Assembly: GCF_044324785.1 (NCBI RefSeq)
Contig: NZ_CP172127.1
From: Escherichia coli
GTDB lineage: Bacteria > Pseudomonadota > Gammaproteobacteria > Enterobacterales > Enterobacteriaceae
Length of the DNA stretch: 64,000 nt
Reading direction: 5' to 3' (one strand)
The notes under the pieces are model-generated. The model was not told where the DNA came from. It saw nothing but the letters and a program-made list of their open reading frames with translations, and searched no databases. Below are positions 43,726 through 53,494 of the stretch, piece after piece (the first letter of the stretch is position 1; each line of letters opens with the position of its first letter). A program made the position numbers and the translations under genes.

Positions 43726-44498
43726 GCGTTTTTCTCCCTCGAATGCTCATTATGGTCACCAGGCAGGCGGGTAATACGTGCATGGCGAGCTTGATCTTCA
43801 TCGAATCGTTTCATGGTAGTGTGAACAAAGCTAAGGTGCGCCATCATTGCTTTGCGCGCCCCGTCAGCATCACCGGCAAAAATGGCGTCAATGACTGCCT
43901 GATGTTGTTCGGTCAGCTGTGAAAAAACCGGGGGTACCAGATACATCCGCTGGCGGCTATGCTTCACAGAGGATTGCAGGACATCGAAGAAACCGCGCAT
44001 GGTTTGCAGCAGCACGATGTTATGTGAGGCTTCGGCAATCGCCAGATGAAAACGAACGTCCGCTTGTGAGGCGAGATCCGGGTCTTCACTTAGCGTTGCT
44101 TCAAAGCAAAGCTGAATTTTCTCTTTTTCGCCAGGTGTGGCGCGCATTGCCGCATGCCACGCGGTGCTGGCTTCAATGGCGTAGCGGGCTTCCAGAATAT
44201 CGAAACTGTAATCCGGATCATCGGCCATCAGCGTTTTCAGCGGCTGGACGATGTTTTGCTCCGACCATGTGTCATGACGCCAGCGAATAAACGTCCCGCC
44301 GCCGCGTCGACTAAGCAGCACGCCTTCGCTCACCAGTTTTGCCAGCGCCTCGCGCAGTGAATTACGCGACACACCGAGTTGCATCGCCAGTTGACGTTCA
44401 GCGGGCAACTTCATGCCCGCCTCCAGGTTTTTTTCATCAATCAGCGCCCGCACACGATCGGCAACCTCGTCTGACAGGCGTCTGGGTAAAACAATCAT
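43722..44498 (-). CDS. lldR: GntR-family L-lactate operon regulator
   Basis: ORF trimmed to [55 protein letters not shown]... Confidence 0.9.
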
Positions 44499-46153
44499 TA
44501 AGGAATCATCCACGTTAAGACATAAGCCTGAAGCGTGGTGATCACGCCCACCATACAGGTGAAGATCAGGCTGTGTTTGACAGTAAAGCGGAACAAATCA
44601 GACTCTTTGCCCACCAGGCCTACCGCCGCACAGGCGATAGCGATAGATTGCGGCGAGATCATTTTGCCGGTGACACCACCGGTGGTGTTGGCGGCAACCA
44701 GCAACAGGTCAGAAACGCCAATTTGTTGTGCTGCAGTGGCTTGCAGCGCGGCGAACAGGGCGTTAGATGAGGTATCCGATCCGGTCAGGAAGACACCAAG
44801 CCAGCCGAGGAACGGCGAGAAGAAGGTGAATGCATGGCCGGTGTGCGCCAGTGCCAGCGCCAGCGTTGATGATAGTCCGGAATAGTTCGAGATAAAGGCG
44901 AACGCCAGCACCATACCGATGGAGTAGATAGGCAGAGCCAGTTCTTTCAGCGTGCTGCCGAAGGTGCTGATAGCGTCAGATGGTTTCATCTTCAGCCAGA
45001 CAATTGAGAGCAGGGCAGCAAAAAGAATGGCGGTACCGGTGGCAGAGAACCAGTCGAACTTAAACACGGCGGCATACGCTGTCGCTTCGCTGACCACTGG
45101 CGGCATACGGGCAACCAGTTTATCGAGGTACGGCACCGGAATATTGATCACCCATTCATACAGCGCACCACCCGAAGCGAACAGGGCTTTAAACGGTGGA
45201 ATACTCCACAGCGTTACGGTGGCGGTCAGGAATAGGAACGGTGTCCAGGCGCGAAGCACCTGACCTGCGGTGTAACCGGTGTGAGCCAGCGTCATATCAA
45301 CCTGTGACGCCCCTAAGTCACCGAAGCGGAATACGCGCACTGGTTGCCAGCGTTTGAGGAACAGCGTCAGGCAGAGCAGTGATACCAGCGAAGAGATAAT
45401 GTCTGGCAGTTCCGGCCCAATGAAGTTAGAGCTGAGGTATTGAGCAATGGCAAACGAACCACCTGCAACCACGACCGCAGGCCACGTTTCTTTGATTCCG
45501 CGCCAACCGTCCATAATCGCCATGATCCAGAACAGCACGATAATGGTCATAAACGGCAGCTGACGCCCCACCATCTGACCAATCTCAAAGCTGTCGATGC
45601 CTGTTACCTGCCCGGCGACCAGAATCGGAATACCCATCGCGCCAAATGCCACTGGTGCGGTGTTAACAATCAGGCACAGTCCGGCGGCGTAGAGTGGTTT
45701 AAAGCCCAGACCGACCAGCAATGCGGCGGTAATTGCTACCGGTGCGCCAAAGCCTGCGGCTCCTTCAAGGAAAGCGCCGAAACAGAAACCGACGATCAGC
45801 ATTTGCAGGCGCTGGTCAGGGGTTATCGAAAGAATAGACGAGCGGATGATGTCAAACTGCCCGGTTTTCACCGAGATCTTATAGACGAACACCGCTGCAA
45901 TAATGATCCACGCGATGGGCCACAAACCGTAGAAGAAGCCATAAATCACCGAGGCCAGCGCGTTAGCGACCGGCATTTTATAGAACAGCAAAGCCACGGC
46001 AAGGGCGATTGCCACCGTCCATGAGGCGGCGACATAACCTTTGAGTTTGAGCTTAATCAGCGCAAAGAAGAAAAACAGGATGGGAAGCGATGCTATCAGA
46101 CTGGAAAGCCAGATATTCCCGGCGGGATCGTAGTTTTGTTGCCAGAGATTCAT
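44498..46153 (-). CDS. lldP: L-lactate permease
   Basis: ORF trimmed to [41 protein letters not shown]... Confidence 0.9.
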
Positions 46154-46385
46154 TGCAGGTCTCCTGGAGTCCACGCACATCGTGTAATGAGTCTGATGCT
46201 CATCTCCTTGTCACACGTTGTGTAAAAGTGGCACTGCCAATTGTGTTGTGTAGGGATAATGACAATGAATGGTTAACTAAATGTTATGCATTGGCAACAT
46301 TGATGCGAGTTTTAATTGGGGAATTGTGAACCAGAGGTCAGATAAGCGAAGAATTGGTAGGGCCAATCTTGGGGGAGAGGTAATG

Positions 46386-46420
46386 AAGAAAAGGGCAATC
46401 CTCATCAGAGAATTGCCCTC
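46386..46420 (-). terminator. rho-independent terminator downstream of the autotransporter gene
   Basis: On minus strand: gggcaattctctgatgaggattgccc followed by ttttcttc. Confidence 0.5.
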
Positions 46421-46431
46421 AGATTGTTGAC

Positions 46432-46535
<104 letters not shown>

Positions 46536-46564
46536 GTGGCGTTTACCCATTCGTTAATGGATGA

Positions 46565-49500
46565 TTACCACTGAATACCGGCACCGAGTGCGGCGGAGTA
46601 TTCACCCTGGCTATTGGTACTACCTTGTAATTTGTAGACCCAACGACCATTGGCGCTCACCATCGACACACCTAAAGCAACAGCCGACTCACCGTTGTAA
46701 GTACCGCCACCAATAGAGGCCATACTGGCACCTGGAGTGTAAGCCTGCGGCAGACCGGTCATTGCCATTGCAGAAGCGATACCACCGCTCAACTTGCTTT
46801 CGGTTTTGGACAGTTTGTTATCCATCTCAACCATCCGCTGATCGGTGTATTGCTTCGTTTCCTGCACGCTTTGCTTCAGCTGCGCATAGTTCACTGCGTC
46901 GTTGTTGTTCACGCCAGCGGAGACGTTGCTGATGCGAGTCGTACCGCCATTACCACCACCGAGAGTGATGTTGCTGTAGTCTACAGAGCCATCAGCTTTG
47001 GTGTCGTAACGAACGCCGCCTGCCTCAGAAGACTTCAGCTGCGAAACGTTAACCGCATCGGTGGCATTAACACCTGCAGCAACGTTGGTGATACGACGCT
47101 GGTTGGTAGAAGAACCCACAGAGATGGTATTTTCTTCGTTGGCCACGGAGCCTGTACCCAGCGCGACGCTGTTGTCAGCGGCAGCAATGGAACCAGAACC
47201 AATCGCAACACTGTCTTTACCCTGCGCGTTGGCATCTACGCCATCGGTGTTGGTCTTGAAGTATTTGGTGCTACCGGTGGTTACGATATCGCCAATGCCG
47301 TTTTCGATATTGGTAACGCGAGTATCCAGATTCGTCACCTGATTGTTCAGGTTAGTAATGCTCTGGGTATTCTGGGAAACCTGCGCGTCCGTTACTTTCA
47401 ACTGACCCACGTTGACCGCATCGGTATCAGCCGAACCAGCCGCGACGTTGGTGATCTGACGTTGACCGTCTTCACTGCCGACAGAGAACTCACCCACAGA
47501 GTTCTGCGGTGCATCCATGTTGTAGGCGGTGTAGCCAGTTTGAGCACCACGAGTCGTCTGTGAGCCATTACCCATAGCAATGCTGTTTGCATGGTTTGCA
47601 CGCGCGTTGCTACCAATAGCAATACCGTTGATCGCATCAGACAGAACCAGAGTGTTCAGGCCGATACCAATGCCCGCATTACCATTAACGATAGTATTCG
47701 CGCCCATTGCCAGCGAGTCAGTACCTACTGCCAGTGAATCTTCTTCCGTTGAATTAGCGTGGAAGTATTTAGTCGGCGTGGTTGCAACTGCACCAATGGC
47801 ATTTTGCAACTGGCGAACCGTAACGGCGTCATGGGCTTCGGAACCATCGGCTACGTTGATGATTTGACGATATTTACCATCATCACCAATAGACAACGCA
47901 CCAAGTAGTTCGCCATCCGTGGTGTCATAACCAATCACAACACCTTCTTCCGACACGCTGGTGTCACGAGAACCTTTAACTATTACACGGCTGGAAACAG
48001 AACTGCTACCCAGGGCGATACCCGTATCAACGTCGCTGTAGCTGTCCTGACCGATGACTACACTGCTATGGCCTTCGGCAACAGCGTTATAACCCACGGC
48101 CACGCTGCTATCGCCTTTGGCAACAGAGTCATAACCGACAGCGGTAGAGCCGATACCAACTGCGCTGGCGTCGTTGAACGCTAAGCCCTTATCGTTGGTA
48201 CGCACATAGTTAATACCTGCACCATTTTCGTTGATATAGGATTCGCTGGTGTCACCGGCAAGCTGATTGATGATTTCGCTGTTCTGCTGGATCATCATAT
48301 TGGTGTTAAACAGCTGAGAACCGTTGATGGCGTCGGTACTGCCTTCGCCAATGTTACCATCAGCAACGTTTGTGATGATGCTGGCCTTGCCGTCATGGCT
48401 GGCGTTGTAGGCACCTGCACCGTCATTGGCCGTTGCATCCCACAGCAGAGCGTTATCGTCGAGCGCATCCAGGGCGTCACCGACGTTGTTGTACTCGGCA
48501 TTTGCAATGGTGTAACTCGGCGCAGTGATAGTGCCGTCAGCGTTAACTTCTGCGTCACCCCCCAGGGCATCGGCAATGTATTTGTTGGTGGTATACAGTT
48601 GTGAACCGTTAATGGCATCGCTGCTGGTGGCAGAGATTGCACCGTTAGCGACGTTAGTGATTACACTGGCTGTTTTATCTTTTCCGTGAGCGGCGCTAAA
48701 TGCACCATTACCATCATTGGCTGTAGCATCCCACAGCAGGGCGTCATCCAGCGTGGTATCGATCGCTTCCAGCGCGTCACCGACGTTGCTGTAACTGCCG
48801 CCAGCGATGGCATAAGTCGGTGCGGTGATTGTGCCGTCAGCATTGACTTCTGCGTCACCACCCAGAGTATCGGCAATGTACTTGCTGGTGTCATAGAGCT
48901 GTGAGCCGTTAATAGCGTCGCTGCTGGTAGAGGAAATTGCACCGTCTGCAACATTAGTAATGATGCTGGCCATGTTATCTTTTCCGCGACCGGCGCTAAA
49001 CGCACCGTCACCGCCCTTGGCGGTCGCATCCCAGAGTAGGGCGTCACCGAGTGATGTGCTAAATGACGTGTTAATGGCTGCCAGAGCCTCACCGACGTTA
49101 TTGTAGTCAGTACCACCAATAGTGTAGGTTGGCCCGGTTAATACACCCGCATCGCTGATATCAGCACCACCGCCAAGGTATGACGTAAATGAATCAGCTA
49201 AGCCATAAAGTTGTGAGCCATTAATGGCGTCAGTGCTGTCAGAGGATACTGTGCCTGCCAGTAAGTTGGTGATTTTGCTGTCAGTACCGTTGGTGCCGTG
49301 TTTGGCACTGAATGCACCCGCCGTAGCATTCCACAGCAGAGAGTCATCACCGAGACTGTCAACAGCATCACTCAGGTTGTTGATATTGGTAGTGTTGGTG
49401 GTGATATTGGCGGTATTGGTCGCCACGTTATCGTTGGTGGTTTTCAGCTGAGAGCCGTTAACCGCGTCGGTGCTGCCAGCCGCCAGTTCACCGGCTTTGA

Positions 49501-52279
49501 CGTTGGTGATTTTGTTGGTGGCATCGGTGCCGTGCGCGGCGCTGAATGCTTTCGCTGCATCATTCCACAGCAGAGAGTCATCACCGAGACTGTCAACAGC
49601 GTCAGTCAGGTTGGTGATGTTGGTGGTGTTCGTGGCGATATTGGTGGTGTTGGCTGCCACGGCATCGTTAGTGGTTTTGAGCTGAGAGCCGTTAACCGCG
49701 TCGGTGCTGCCAGCCGTCAGGTCACCGTCTTTGACGTTAGTGATTTTGCTGGTGGCATCGGTACCGTGTGCGGCGCTGAATGCTTTCGCTGCATCATTCC
49801 ACAGCAGAGAGTCATCACCGAGACTGTCAACAGCGTCAGTCAGGTTGGTGATGTTGGTGGTGTTCGTGGCGATATTGGTGGTGTTGGCTGCCACGGCATC
49901 GTTAGTGGTTTTGAGCTGAGAGCCGTTAACCGCGTCGGTGCTGCCAGCCGTCAGGTCACCGTCTTTGACGTTAGTGATTTTGCTGGTGGCATCGGTACCG
50001 TGTGCGGCGCTGAATGCTTTCGCTGCATCATTCCACAGCAGAGAGTCATCACCGAGACTGTCAACAGCGTCAGTCAGGTTGGTGATGTTGGTGGTGTTCG
50101 TGGCGATATTGGTGGTGTTGGCTGCCACGGCATCGTTAGTGGTTTTGAGCTGAGAGCCGTTAACAGCGTCGGTGCTGCCAGCCGTCAGGTCACCGTCTTT
50201 GACGTTGGTGATTTTGCTGGTGGCATCGGTGCCGTGCGCGGCGCTGAACGCGGTGCCATTCCACAGCAGGGCATCGTCTTTAAGGTCGCCAACGGAATCA
50301 GTCAGGTTGGTGATATTGGTGGTGTTGGTCGCTACGTTATCGTTGGTGGTTTTGAGCTGAGAGCCGTTAACCGCGTCAGTGCTGCCAGCCGTCAGGTCAC
50401 CGTCTTTGACGTTGGTGATTTTGCTGGTGGCATCGGTGCCGTGCGCGGCGCTGAACGCGGTGCCATTCCACAGCAGGGCATCGTCTTTAAGGTCGCCAAC
50501 GGAATCAGTCAGGTTGGTGATATTGGTGGTGTTGGTCGCTACGTTATCGTTGGTGGTTTTGAGCTGAGAGCCGTTAACCGCGTCAGTGCTGCCAGCCGTC
50601 AGGTCACCGTCTTTGACGTTAGTGATTTTGCTGGTGGCATCGGTGCCGTGCGCGGCGCTGAACGCGGTGCCATTCCACAGCAGGGCATCGTCTTTAAGGT
50701 CGCCAACGGAATCCGTCAGGGTATTGATACTGTTAGTGTTGGTGGTGATATTGGCAGTATTGGTCGCTACGTTATCGTTGGTGGTTTTCAGCTGAGAACC
50801 GTTAACCGCATCCTTACTGGTATCAGAAATAGCGCCGTCTTTAACGTTGGTGATGGTACTGGTAGTATCTGTACCATGTGCCGCACTATATGCCTTTTTA
50901 AGGGAGTCCCATTGTAACGTATTATTGTCCAGGCCCGTTAAGGCGTCGCCAACAGTGCCGAAAATACCACTTTTCAGCCTGTAATTTGGGGAAGTAACGA
51001 CGCCTTGCGCATTGACGGTAGCCCCCCCACCAAGATTGTCCGCTACTGACTTACTGATAGCATAAAGCTGTGATCCATTGATGGCATCAGTACTGGTAGT
51101 GCTGATATCACCTGCTGCCATATTGACAATTTGTCGCTGAGCTGTTGTGTTACCCACAGAAACAGTATCCGCGTCAGTCGCTACAGAACCAGCACCCAGA
51201 GCAACTGAATTTTTCCCCTGAGCACTGGCTTGAGCACCAATTGCAGTGCCATTTTCTAAACCGGCATAACTGCCTTGTCCAAGAGCAATAGCATTTACAC
51301 CACCTGTAATACTACCATTACCCAGCGCGATAGCATTTGCGCCGTCAGCTTTATTCCCTTGACCGATGGCAATTGCGCCAGCCGCTACTGCCTGACTTTG
51401 ATTGCCCAGAGCAATCGTGTTGTCGACATCTGCAATACTGCCGGAGCCCAACGCGATACTATTAAGTCCATTTGCCTCCGCGTTAGTACCAACTGCCGTC
51501 GCATTTTCAGCAGCTTTGCTCTCTGCACCCATAGCAATCGCGTTTGCGTCGCTGGCGGCGGATAGTCTGCCTAATGCGAGGCTGTCTACGCCAGCAGCAG
51601 CACTGTTACGGCCTACTGCAATCGCGTTAGCTGCAGATGCGGCACTACTTGCACCCAGCGCCATTGCATATTCTTTCGACGCATTAGCCGTTGCACCGAG
51701 GGCGATACTCATAATTCCTAAGGCCTTGCTCTTACGTCCAAATGCGATGGCGTCATCAGCACCAGTCTCTGCGTAATCCCCTTGTGCAATAGCAAATTCA
51801 CCTGTTGAGTTTGCATAACGACCAAGTGCGATTGAAAATCCACCCGTTGACGTTGCCGATGCACCTATAGCGAGGCTTCGCTCACCTGCTGAGATAGTGT
51901 TAATCCCTAACGCCACTGATGCTTCGCCAAGCGAATGGGTCTTAGCACCGAGGGCTGTTGACCACCTTCCGTCAGCAGTTGAGTGATAACCTACTGCGGT
52001 GCTGGAGCCACCCCCGGTGTCTGTAAAGCTATTTGCTTTTGCATCTTCACCGATAGCAACCCAGCCTGTTCCTGTGCCCTGGCCATAATTGACGCCCTGA
52101 CCGTTGTCAATCCCGGCATTCGCCAGTGCCCCAAACGACGACAACAACCCACCCGCAACCAGGGCAGAAATTAACAGCTTACTGCGCCCGCTCTTTTTGC
52201 CACGGCTTTTGGCCGTTTCGCTGGCAACGGTGTAACTGCCCGTAGCCGGATTCCAGATAACTTTAAAAATTTTGTTCAT
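46565..52279 (-). CDS. trimeric autotransporter adhesin (YadA-like membrane anchor; UpaG/EhaG/SadA family), 1904 aa
   Basis: N-terminal extended signal peptide [21 protein letters not shown]...; hundreds of residues of NxxAxG/SxAxG head and neck repeats; C-terminal YadA-type anchor ...[41 protein letters not shown] ending in aromatic residue. Confidence 0.9.
49452..50800. repeat. near-identical in-frame tandem repeats inside the autotransporter gene (3 x 234 bp then 3 x 207 bp)
   Basis: Antisense ORF track shows identical 71-aa peptides at 49704 and 49938 (period 234) and identical 62-aa peptides at 50172 and 50379 (period 207); in the sense frame the protein repeats [48 protein letters not shown]... 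Confidence 0.85.
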
Positions 52280-52322
52280 TATTGATGCTCTCTATTCCTT
52301 GATATAAGCGCAGAAGCTGCAT

Positions 52323-53006
52323 TTATTTTTTGTTTTTTCGCTGCCGAGTTTCAGCAGGTTGAACAGTGTCGAACTGGAGATTGGCCATATTGATGGACAA
52401 CTTCAGATACTTCAGGTTATTAGGCGAAACGCCTTTTAATGTCAGATTAATGTCTTGCCATTGACCAGGCATTAATTGCAGAGTGGAATTCATGGTGGTG
52501 TTGAAAAGTAATTGTTGCCACTTTGCCAGAGCTTTGGCATCGGTGGGTCTTTCATTGCCCCATGTCGCATGAAAGCCAATATTTGATACGGGAACGCTTA
52601 AAAGGTTAACCAGCGAAATACGAATAACACTGCCATTTTCAACCGCATCAATAGCCAGCACCCGGCCTGCCAAACCGACCGATCCGTTATTTAAAATGAA
52701 ATATTGTGTTTGTGCTGGGTTAAATTCTGTAAAGACAAATTCGTCCTGCTTGTCTTTAACCGCTTTCACCACGCCAGCGAGCGTTTTGGTACTATTTATG
52801 ATGGTAGTTTGTTGTTTTTCAAAATGTTCTATCTTTCGCTTATCGAGTTCCTGTTGTTTCTCAAGCGCCTCAATTTTGCTTTTTTGCAACTCTTGCTGTG
52901 TAACGAGGTCGTCGACCTTACTCGCTTTTTCAATATAGTCACACCCTGCCAATAAGCAGAGAGGCACTATTATTAACACGCTTAACAGTGTTTTCTTTAG
53001 GTTCAT
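52323..53006 (-). CDS. SadB-like lipoprotein (putative trimeric autotransporter export helper)
   Basis: Lipobox LLAGC after signal peptide; coiled-coil segment QQELQKSKIEALEKQQELDKRKIEHFEKQQ; encoded immediately upstream of and co-oriented with the autotransporter, as sadB is with sadA in Salmonella. Confidence 0.6.
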   Translation of the reverse strand: MNLKKTLLSVLIIVPLCLLAGCDYIEKASKVDDLVTQQELQKSKIEALEKQQELDKRKIEHFEKQQTTIINSTKTLAGVVKAVKDKQDEFVFTEFNPAQTQYFILNNGSVGLAGRVLAIDAVENGSVIRISLVNLLSVPVSNIGFHATWGNERPTDAKALAKWQQLLFNTTMNSTLQLMPGQWQDINLTLKGVSPNNLKYLKLSINMANLQFDTVQPAETRQRKNKK

Positions 53007-53494
53007 AGGATGAATTCCTTTTCATAATCCCGATACGTTGATAATTACAGTACAATCATTTTTTTTATGAATGATTAGAGTGGGGCATATCCGCCAAATA
53101 AATTTGTTAGAGAATTTTTGTATTAATGGGTTGTGCGAATATGTTTTTAAGTGTCAAACAATTTTAGTTTGTAGCCAATAAATAAATTGATCGCGCGGAT
53201 TTTAATGATCGCTGTCAATCAATGTCAAATGTTTCACCGGATAAAGGCCCAGGGAAGGGAAAGGTAAATATTCAGTTGAGTGATGTTTTATTGCGAAGTT
53301 TGCGATGCTGATAGAAAAATTTAAATAATTAATTATGTTTCAAGCATTGATATGCGGTAATTCATTGCTGATATTGATACATCATTATTTAATTTGTACC
53401 TGCTTTTCAGAATTTAGCCTGCTCCGAGCGCTCAGAAGTGTAGGTGGAGTTGAATATATAATGTTAAGAACGTTACAAATATTCGATCTCTGAA

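What the first reader, a model, noticed from the sequence alone, without database searches (positions are those of the whole stretch)
49452..50800. Perfect or near-perfect 234-bp and 207-bp tandem repeats inside the adhesin gene
Three consecutive 234-bp units and three 207-bp units are almost identical at the DNA level (identical antisense peptides in the ORF track), all multiples of 3, so recombination between them would change stalk length in frame. This is a likely source of strain-to-strain and possibly within-population size variation of the adhesin, and a hazard for short-read assembly (repeat number may be collapsed or expanded).
Basis: seen in the sequence. Interest (0 to 1): 0.5.

Follow-up and report, generated by a model that had tools for sequence, protein, structure and literature searches.

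The report
Variable repeat modules in E. coli adhesin
The near-identical 234-bp and 207-bp repeats are real and encode stacked stalk modules of a known E. coli surface adhesin (UpaG/EhaG/SadA type); strains differ by whole modules and short-read assemblies break there, but this behaviour is already known for this protein family.

Summary
The gene at window 46565-52279 (- strand, 1904 aa) is a trimeric autotransporter adhesin at the E. coli sadB-TAA-lldP locus, the position of upaG/ehaG. Its stalk holds ten consecutive modules, each a neck, a coiled coil and a DALL connector. Two 69-aa modules (207 bp) and three 78-aa modules (234 bp) are almost identical at DNA level, with perfect self-identity over 395 nt at offset 234 and 242 nt at offset 207. 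The two unit types differ by a 21-bp heptad indel and a 6-bp indel.

- Database alleles with identical flanking protein sequence differ by exact multiples of 69 or 78 aa, giving lengths of 1664-1977 aa.
- Complete genomes carry 1-8 matches to the unit.
- Two near-identical complete-genome loci differ by exactly 3 x 234 bp.
- Draft assemblies of this allele end their contigs at window 49534, the edge of the perfect tract.

Within lineages the copy number looks stable: about 30 complete genomes carrying one common allele share a single gene length, and this lineage has one count. Rapid within-population switching therefore remains untested. The long + strand ORF is a codon-usage by-product. This is an ordinary, well-understood kind of adhesin length polymorphism, as in BadA and Cha. 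Interest is low.

The parts
46565..52279 (-). Trimeric autotransporter adhesin gene, 1904 aa, a positional orthologue of upaG/ehaG/sadA
   Evidence: Intact ORF. Pfam finds ESPR, YadA_head repeats, YadA_stalk x16 and YadA_anchor. Synteny is mtlR-yibT-yibL-DUF3251/SadB-TAA-lldP in E. coli genomes, where some alleles are annotated ehaG or upaG.
52136..52279 (-). Extended signal peptide region (ESPR), aa 1-48
   Evidence: PF13018, E 4e-16.
50627..50854 (-). Unit A0 (76 aa). It has its own 5' half and a B-type 3' half. The period-207 tract starts here.
   Evidence: Unit parse and alignment.
50213..50626 (-). Units B1 (50420-50626) and B2 (50213-50419): two 207-bp, 69-aa neck/coiled-coil/DALL modules differing by 1 nt
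   Evidence: TRF 207-bp period at 50101-50743.
49511..50212 (-). Units C1 (49979-50212), C2 (49745-49978) and C3 (49511-49744): three 234-bp, 78-aa modules differing by 2-5 nt. Each carries an internal 21-bp heptad duplication.
49274..49510 (-). Unit C4' (79 aa), a diverged edge unit of the same array
   Evidence: D1 family copy 49292-49591 is 89% identical to the next copies.
48377..49273 (-). Units D1-D3 (104, 100 and 95 aa): longer modules with an FGG-like insert, 300-bp period, 79% identity
   Evidence: Match to the SadA fragment 2yo2. E. coli N3 lacks exactly one unit.
49536..50164 (-). Tract of perfect period-234 identity (395 nt + 234 nt). This is the substrate for unequal recombination or slippage and the cause of contig breaks.
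   Evidence: Draft contigs start at 49534.
50172..50713 (-). Tract of period-207 identity with a single mismatch
46568..46750 (-). YadA-like membrane anchor (beta-barrel segment), aa 1844-1904
   Evidence: PF03895, E 1.5e-19.
52323..53006 (-). Upstream DUF3251 / SadB-YajI family lipoprotein gene (227 aa), the conserved partner of this adhesin locus
   Evidence: ORF. RefSeq annotation of the orthologous position. The role of SadB in SadA display is stated in PMC7247746.

Best explanation
The repeats are the coding sequence of stacked stalk modules of a trimeric autotransporter adhesin of the UpaG/EhaG/SadA group.

Each unit encodes one complete structural period: a neck (ITNVKDG...DAVNGSQL), a coiled-coil segment with asparagine-rich heptads, and a DALL alpha-to-beta connector (DDxLLW...FSAAHG). 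The 78-aa unit has one more heptad (NIATNTT, 21 bp) and two more residues than the 69-aa unit. Because every unit starts and ends in the same structural phase and is a multiple of 3 nt, gaining or losing whole units keeps both the reading frame and the trimer register. The only effect is to lengthen or shorten the fibre, by roughly 5-6 nm per unit when scaled from SadA.

The genetic mechanism is misaligned pairing between near-identical direct repeats: unequal homologous recombination between sister chromosomes, or replication slippage. The same pairing also homogenises interior units (concerted evolution).

In nature this produces discrete allele length classes among E. coli lineages. It operates on an evolutionary, between-lineage timescale rather than as a demonstrated fast switch.

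Shown here: the module anatomy, whole-unit polymorphism, homogenisation of units within an allele, and assembly breaks. Inferred: the recombination mechanism, its rate, and the functional effect of length.
For: TAA identity:
- Pfam finds ESPR, YadA_head, 16 YadA_stalk and YadA_anchor.
- The locus sits at the ehaG/upaG position.

Module fold:
- The unit matches solved SadA fragments 2yo2, 2ynz and 3zmf at E 4e-21 to 6e-14 across the coil end, DALL and neck.
- 2ynz is listed as the DALL connector structure in PMC7247746.
- There is one YadA_stalk hit per unit.

Unit anatomy and indels.

Whole-unit polymorphism:
- 120 homologues fall into architectures such as (69,76,78,99,100,97) through (69,76,78x5,100,100,97).
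- Alleles with 100% identical 462-aa N-terminal and 613-aa C-terminal flanks differ by +1x78, +2x78 or +1x69.
- Complete genomes show 1-8 unit matches.
- L013 versus L017 differ by exactly 702 bp with 18 SNPs in 10.2 kb.

Concerted evolution: 78-aa units differ by 2-5 nt within the window allele but by 10-22 nt from the units of strain C4.

Change concentrated in repeats: over 17.7 kb, the window and N3 differ inside the gene only by two synonymous SNPs in the 234-bp array plus an exact 300-bp unit deletion.

Precedent: BadA neck/stalk domain number varies between isolates through recombination (PMC8859334). Cha repeat-number variation alters adhesion, as cited in PMC9704523.
Against: - No direct evidence of ongoing change in this lineage. 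The 69/78 unit count is the same in the window, in N3, in L021 and in the 5.48-Mb record. UniRef lists the identical protein in 17 entries.
- About 30 complete genomes carrying one common allele (94.3% identical to the window gene) all have a 5466-bp gene, so copy number can be stable for long periods.
- Some length classes (1890, 1907-1909, 1942 and 1977 aa) were seen only on draft contigs and could in principle be mis-assembled.
- Identical protein flanks do not prove recent common ancestry.
- No functional data here link length to adhesion.
Confidence: 0.85

Rival explanations
1. The array is a fast contingency-type switch. Unit number changes at high frequency within a clonal population or within a host, giving mixed adhesin lengths, in the manner of a periscope protein or a phase-variable locus.
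For: - Perfect homology tracts of 395 nt and 242 nt are long enough for efficient RecA-dependent and RecA-independent misalignment (the mechanism is from general knowledge).
- The only differences between very close relatives lie in the repeats.
- Cha sets a precedent.
Against: - The 69/78 count is the same in every independent full-length assembly of this allele.
- One gene length is shared across about 30 complete genomes carrying a single common allele.
- The one unit-level difference from N3 is in the 79%-identical 300-bp units, not in the near-perfect ones.
Confidence: 0.12
2. The copy number in the window is an assembly artefact: the repeat was collapsed or expanded, so the 3+3 structure is not the true genome.
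For: - Short-read assemblies demonstrably fail at this array. In the 24 draft contigs read, the 989-aa fragment (indexed in 90 blocks) starts at window 49534.
- The two sites where the window differs from N3 and L021 both lie in the array and could be polishing artefacts.
Against: - The closed genome N3 and contig L021 (GCA_958315875.1) show the same 69/78 unit count and differ from the window inside the gene only at the same two sites.
- The identical protein is recorded on a 5.48-Mb contig.
Confidence: 0.05
3. The long + strand ORF (49298-50917, 539 aa) is a real antisense overlapping gene, and the repeats are maintained for its sake.
For: The ORF is unusually long. An antisense overlapping ORF inside ehaG (oloz5029) has been claimed in EHEC (PMC9927249).
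Against: - The ORF is in the fully codon-overlapped antisense frame, where stops arise only from the sense codons TTA, CTA and TCA.
- None of these codons occurs between aa 455 and 1006, which is the repeat array. Elsewhere in the gene there are 36 in about 1350 codons.
- Because the units are copies, one stop-free unit multiplied seven times explains the ORF length.
- The sense strand has clear Pfam and PDB homology.
Confidence: 0.02

Closest known systems
UpaG / EhaG (E. coli) and SadA (Salmonella) trimeric autotransporter adhesins
   Same: - Same chromosomal position, between yibL/sadB and lldP.
- Same domain grammar: ESPR, YadA-like head, neck/coiled-coil/DALL and FGG stalk modules, a second head, and the anchor.
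[quoted passage not shown]
   Different: - This allele is not named upaG or ehaG by RefSeq; its close relatives are labelled 'YadA-like family protein'.
- The 234-bp unit matches alleles annotated upaG (Nissle 1917, 83972) at only about 80% and once per genome.
- O157 EhaG (1588 aa) does not show this run of 69/78-aa module spacings.
- The run of five nearly identical modules is specific to this allele group.
Bartonella henselae BadA neck/stalk domain repeats
   Same: - A TAA stalk built of repeated coiled-coil plus DALL-neck tandem connector domains.
- Domain number differs between isolates and is attributed to recombination.
- Long reads are needed to assemble it (PMC9602544; PMC8859334).
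   Different: - BadA has about 30 domains plus a downstream pseudogene 'toolbox'.
- Here there are 10 modules and no evident donor cassettes next to the gene.
- Fibronectin binding by DALL-neck motifs is shown for BadA, not for this protein.
Haemophilus cryptic genospecies Cha adhesin (tandem peptide repeat variation)
   Same: A TAA in which the number of tandem peptide repeats varies and correlates with head exposure, adhesion and aggregation. This is as cited in PMC9704523; the primary paper was not read.
   Different: Different repeat unit and organism. Spontaneous variation was shown experimentally for Cha, and nothing of that kind has been shown here.
Periscope proteins (Gram-positive and other monomeric surface rods with near-identical tandem repeat domains)
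   Same: DNA repeats of high identity encoding more than 50 residues. Repeat number varies between closely related strains. Homologous recombination is proposed as the mechanism. Short reads cannot resolve the repeats (PMC9704523).
   Different: The class as defined excludes trimeric TAAs. The units here are not independently folding monomeric domains; they are periods of a trimeric coiled-coil fibre.

Membership tests
Trimeric autotransporter adhesin (type Vc secretion) | C-terminal YadA-like membrane anchor domain | tested here: met
   PF03895 at aa 1844-1904, E 1.5e-19, full model 1-60/60.
Trimeric autotransporter adhesin (type Vc secretion) | Passenger made of head repeats, neck connectors and coiled-coil stalk | tested here: met
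   YadA_head repeats lie in two regions and there are 16 YadA_stalk hits. PDB matches to SadA, AtaA, UspA1 and Hia fragments.
Trimeric autotransporter adhesin (type Vc secretion) | N-terminal (extended) signal peptide | tested here: met
   ESPR PF13018 at aa 1-48, E 4e-16.
Trimeric autotransporter adhesin (type Vc secretion) | Forms a surface-exposed homotrimer | not testable with these tools
   Inferred only from homology to solved trimeric SadA fragments.
UpaG/EhaG/SadA orthologue group | Position between the sadB-like lipoprotein gene and lldP, downstream of mtlR-yibT-yibL | tested here: met
   Synteny in L001-L018, including O157 ehaG.
UpaG/EhaG/SadA orthologue group | Named UpaG or EhaG by curated annotation rules | tested here: not met
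   Close relatives are annotated 'YadA-like family protein'. NCBIfam gives only sub-threshold hits to other TAA models. It is therefore a divergent allele of the locus, not the canonical CFT073 UpaG or EDL933 EhaG sequence.
UpaG/EhaG/SadA orthologue group | Adhesion to extracellular matrix, autoaggregation and biofilm formation | not testable with these tools
   Reported for UpaG and EhaG in PMC7247748. Not tested for this allele.
Repeat-number-variable surface fibre (BadA / Cha / periscope-like behaviour) | Tandem in-frame repeats with very high DNA identity | tested here: met
Repeat-number-variable surface fibre (BadA / Cha / periscope-like behaviour) | Repeat number differs between closely related strains | tested here: met
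Repeat-number-variable surface fibre (BadA / Cha / periscope-like behaviour) | Repeat number changes within a clonal population, or in response to selection | not testable with these tools
   There are only indirect hints, and they favour stability within lineages.
Periscope protein class (strict definition) | Monomeric single-chain protein with independently folding tandem domains | tested here: not met
   The protein is a TAA, and the class definition explicitly excludes TAAs (PMC9704523).

The most novel reading that the evidence does not exclude
In E. coli lineages whose interior modules are almost identical, as in this allele, the stalk array could behave as a true length rheostat. Unit gain and loss would occur at appreciable frequency within a host population. 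Selection would then tune how far the adhesin head reaches past the O-antigen or capsule layer, or vary the number of DALL-neck matrix-binding sites. That would make a Gram-negative trimeric adhesin functionally equivalent to the periscope proteins, from which TAAs are currently excluded.
Probability: 0.12. Interest if true: 0.5.

Novelty: new member of a known kind. Interest (0 to 1): 0.22.

Why it matters
There are three practical consequences.

- Gene presence/absence and allele typing of upaG/ehaG-like adhesins from short-read data will be unreliable for this allele group. Contigs break at the array, and partial proteins flood the databases.
- Vaccine or typing schemes based on UpaG must allow for length classes that differ by whole 69- or 78-aa modules.
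- The allele series offers a natural set of fibres differing only in module number. It could be used to test how stalk length affects adhesion behind O-antigen or capsule.

None of this changes current understanding of trimeric autotransporter adhesins.

Tried and rejected
- I tried to read the primary UpaG/EhaG and SadA structure papers (PMC3302597, PMC2446758, PMC3529040). They are not held, so I could not check whether unit-number polymorphism of upaG was already described in detail.
- NCBIfam has no above-threshold model for this protein or for the SadB-like neighbour.
- The antisense-gene reading of the 539-aa + strand ORF was considered and rejected on codon grounds.
- Mis-assembly of the window's copy number was considered and judged unlikely, because independent assemblies agree.
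- I used a whole-locus search with spread sampling to estimate gene lengths across E. coli. Spans are confounded by flank indels and by the K-12-type deletion, so I fetched the annotated loci instead.
- Structure prediction was not run. Monomer models of trimeric fibres are uninformative, and sequence matches to solved SadA fragments already assign the fold.
Full report
**Observation**

Tandem Repeats Finder reports two periods:
- a 234-bp period at 49292-50248 (4.1 copies, 95% matches, no indels);
- a 207-bp period at 50101-50743 (3.1 copies, 96%).

A direct offset scan shows perfect self-identity over 395 nt at offset 234 (49536-49930). At offset 207 it runs 242 nt, then 92 nt after a single mismatch (50172-50506). 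The repeats are therefore real, at about the stated coordinates, and far beyond chance. They lie in a single intact ORF on the - strand, 46565-52279, 1904 aa.

**What the gene is**

Pfam finds an ESPR signal (aa 1-48), two blocks of YadA_head repeats, 16 YadA_stalk (neck) hits and a complete YadA_anchor at aa 1844-1904.

The gene sits between a DUF3251/SadB-family lipoprotein gene (52323-53006) and lldP, downstream of mtlR-yibT-yibL. Every E. coli genome fetched has this arrangement, and some alleles there are annotated ehaG or upaG.

The window is E. coli. Over 17.7 kb it differs from strain N3 by about two dozen SNPs plus the changes described below. The identical protein is WP_395765595.1, recorded on a 5.48-Mb contig.

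It is thus an allele of the UpaG/EhaG/SadA positional orthologue group, although RefSeq labels its relatives only 'YadA-like family protein'.

**Anatomy of the array**

Cutting the protein at the neck motif ITN[VL]xxG gives ten consecutive modules:

| Unit | Length (aa) | Window coordinates |
|---|---|---|
| A0 | 76 | 50627-50854 |
| B1 | 69 | 50420-50626 |
| B2 | 69 | 50213-50419 |
| C1 | 78 | 49979-50212 |
| C2 | 78 | 49745-49978 |
| C3 | 78 | 49511-49744 |
| C4' | 79 | 49274-49510 |
| D1-D3 | 104, 100, 95 | 48377-49273 |

- Each module has one YadA_stalk hit.
- The coil-end/DALL/neck stretch matches the solved SadA fragments 2yo2, 2ynz and 3zmf at E 4e-21 to 6e-14. 2ynz is the reference DALL connector structure (PMC7247746).
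- The longer D units add an FGG-like insert that matches the N-terminal part of 2yo2.
- B and C units differ by a 21-bp indel, which is exactly one heptad (NIATNTT) and is visible as a 21-bp mini-repeat in each C unit. They also differ by a 6-bp indel and a block of substitutions in the DALL part.
- A0 and C4' are mosaic edge units.

**Is copy number variable?**

Yes, between strains.
- Among the 120 best database homologues, the spacing pattern of LLW motifs ranges from (69,76,78,99,100,97) at 1664 aa to (69,76,78x5,100,100,97) at 1977 aa. That is 0-2 spacings of 69 aa and 1-6 spacings of 78 aa.
- Several allele pairs are 100% identical over the 462-aa N-terminal and 613-aa C-terminal flanks yet differ by +1x78, +2x78 or +1x69.
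- Length classes 1664, 1742, 1821, 1830 and 1906 occur on contigs of 4.8-5.4 Mb, which are chromosome-sized.
- In 5426 complete genomes, the 234-bp unit is found in 960, at 1-8 places per genome, median 4.
- Strains 1190 and GPEC403-625 carry a 5730-bp gene (5x78+79). Strain UID2309220033 carries the same allele at 5028 bp (2x78+79). The difference is exactly 702 bp (3x234), with 18 SNPs in 10.2 kb.

**Signs of the process**

- Within the window allele, the three 78-aa units differ by 2-5 nt of 234. They differ by 10-22 nt from the units of strain C4, whose own units differ from one another by 11-13 nt. This is the pattern expected from recent duplication or homogenisation by misaligned recombination.
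- Between the window and its close relative N3, the only differences inside the 5.7-kb gene are two synonymous SNPs, both in the 234-bp array (window 50165 and 49937), and an exact in-frame 300-bp deletion of one D unit (48617-48916).
- The crossover of that deletion lies in the neck motif SSDA|INGSQLY, with only a 2-bp interval between flanking mismatches.
- L021 (GCA_958315875.1) encodes the identical protein but carries the N3 bases at those same two sites. The two differences may be real gene conversion or mutation, or they may be repeat-related polishing errors.

**Limits**

Copy number looks stable within lineages.
- The window, N3, L021 and the 5.48-Mb record all have the same B/C unit count.
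- About 30 complete genomes carrying one common allele, 94.3% identical to the window gene, all have a 5466-bp gene.

Fast within-population switching is therefore neither shown nor suggested. It cannot be tested with these tools.

**Assembly hazard**

This is shown directly.
- The 90%-identity cluster that contains the window protein has 55 members, and most of the members listed are 'partial' proteins of 953-1123 aa. All of them are C-terminal fragments beginning inside the last C units.
- The commonest, 989 aa, is indexed in 90 blocks of the collection. In the 24 contigs read (two places shown, 22 similar), it starts at contig base 1. That base corresponds to window 49534, two bases from the start of the perfect period-234 tract.

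Short-read assemblers therefore stop at the array. Collapse or expansion was not demonstrated.

**Mechanism**

Best explanation, confidence about 0.85. Each unit is one complete structural period and a multiple of three nucleotides, so misaligned pairing of the near-identical repeats adds or removes whole neck/coil/DALL periods. The pairing could arise from unequal sister-chromosome recombination or from replication slippage. The frame and the trimer register are preserved.

Scaling from SadA (1461 aa, about 108 nm; PMC7247746), a unit is roughly 5-6 nm. The observed 1664-1977-aa range would then be about 20 nm of reach. This is an inference.

By analogy with BadA, where DALL-neck motifs bind fibronectin cumulatively (PMC9602544), module number might also change avidity for matrix proteins. 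SadA function is reported to be masked by LPS and fimbriae (PMC7247748), so length could matter for exposure. Neither idea has been tested.

**Comparison with what is known**

- TAA stalk repeat-number variation is established for BadA (PMC8859334) and for Cha (cited in PMC9704523).
- The periscope-protein class shows the same behaviour but by definition excludes TAAs.

This finding is therefore a clear, well-documented new example of a known kind, not a new mechanism.

**The + strand ORF**

It lies in the fully overlapped antisense frame, where only the sense codons TTA, CTA and TCA create stops. None occurs between aa 455 and 1006, which is the array, against 36 elsewhere in the gene. Because the units are copies, one stop-free unit explains the whole 539-aa ORF. 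A claimed antisense gene in ehaG (PMC9927249) was noted but not mapped onto this allele.

**Verdict**

Novelty is low, and interest is about 0.2.

Noticed in passing
window 48377-49273 (units D1-D3); deletion 48617-48916 relative to E. coli N3 (L001): A third tier of repeats: three 95-104-aa modules (300-bp period, 79% identity) containing an FGG-like insert. The near-identical strain N3 lacks exactly one module. The deletion is an in-frame 300 bp whose crossover interval is only 2 bp, inside the neck motif SSDA|INGSQLY. Recombination or slippage therefore also acts on diverged units.
   Followed up: yes
window 49612-49651, 49846-49885, 50080-50119, 49381-49420: A 21-bp (one-heptad) tandem duplication sits inside every 234-bp unit and is absent from the 207-bp units. 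It accounts for 21 of the 27 bp by which the two unit types differ. Slippage has thus acted at heptad level as well as at unit level.
   Followed up: yes
window 49298-50917, + strand: A 539-aa antisense ORF spans the array. It is explained by the absence of the sense codons TTA, CTA and TCA between aa 455 and 1006. A published claim of an antisense overlapping gene in ehaG (oloz5029, PMC9927249) was not mapped onto this allele.
   Followed up: partly
window 49937 and 50165: These are the only two point differences between the window gene and both N3 and L021. Both are synonymous and both lie in the 234-bp array. At 50165, N3 and L021 carry the base found in the downstream paralogous units. They could reflect gene conversion, or they could be polishing errors in a repeat.
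   Followed up: partly
window about 44000-46500 (lldP): 23 of the roughly 26 SNPs between the window and N3 over 17.7 kb cluster in lldP, just downstream of the adhesin gene. This looks like an imported recombination patch.
   Followed up: no
window about 46500-53100, compared with K-12-type genomes (H58-H70): K-12 and related laboratory strains match the 21.7-kb query over a span of only 14.9 kb, with no adhesin or SadB-like gene listed under the match. The whole sadB-TAA segment appears to be missing in that lineage.
   Followed up: no
window 52323-53006, - strand: The upstream 227-aa gene is annotated DUF3251 or 'SadB/YajI family lipoprotein' in RefSeq, but it gave no NCBIfam hit in my scan. 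It is the presumed export helper of the adhesin, by analogy with SadB.
   Followed up: partly
protein database cluster of the window protein (P0122-P0135); L019/L020 base 1 = window 49534: Public databases hold many 'partial' C-terminal fragments of this adhesin (953-1123 aa). They were generated by contig breaks at the repeat array. They distort clustering: the cluster representative is a 1056-aa fragment.
   Followed up: yes
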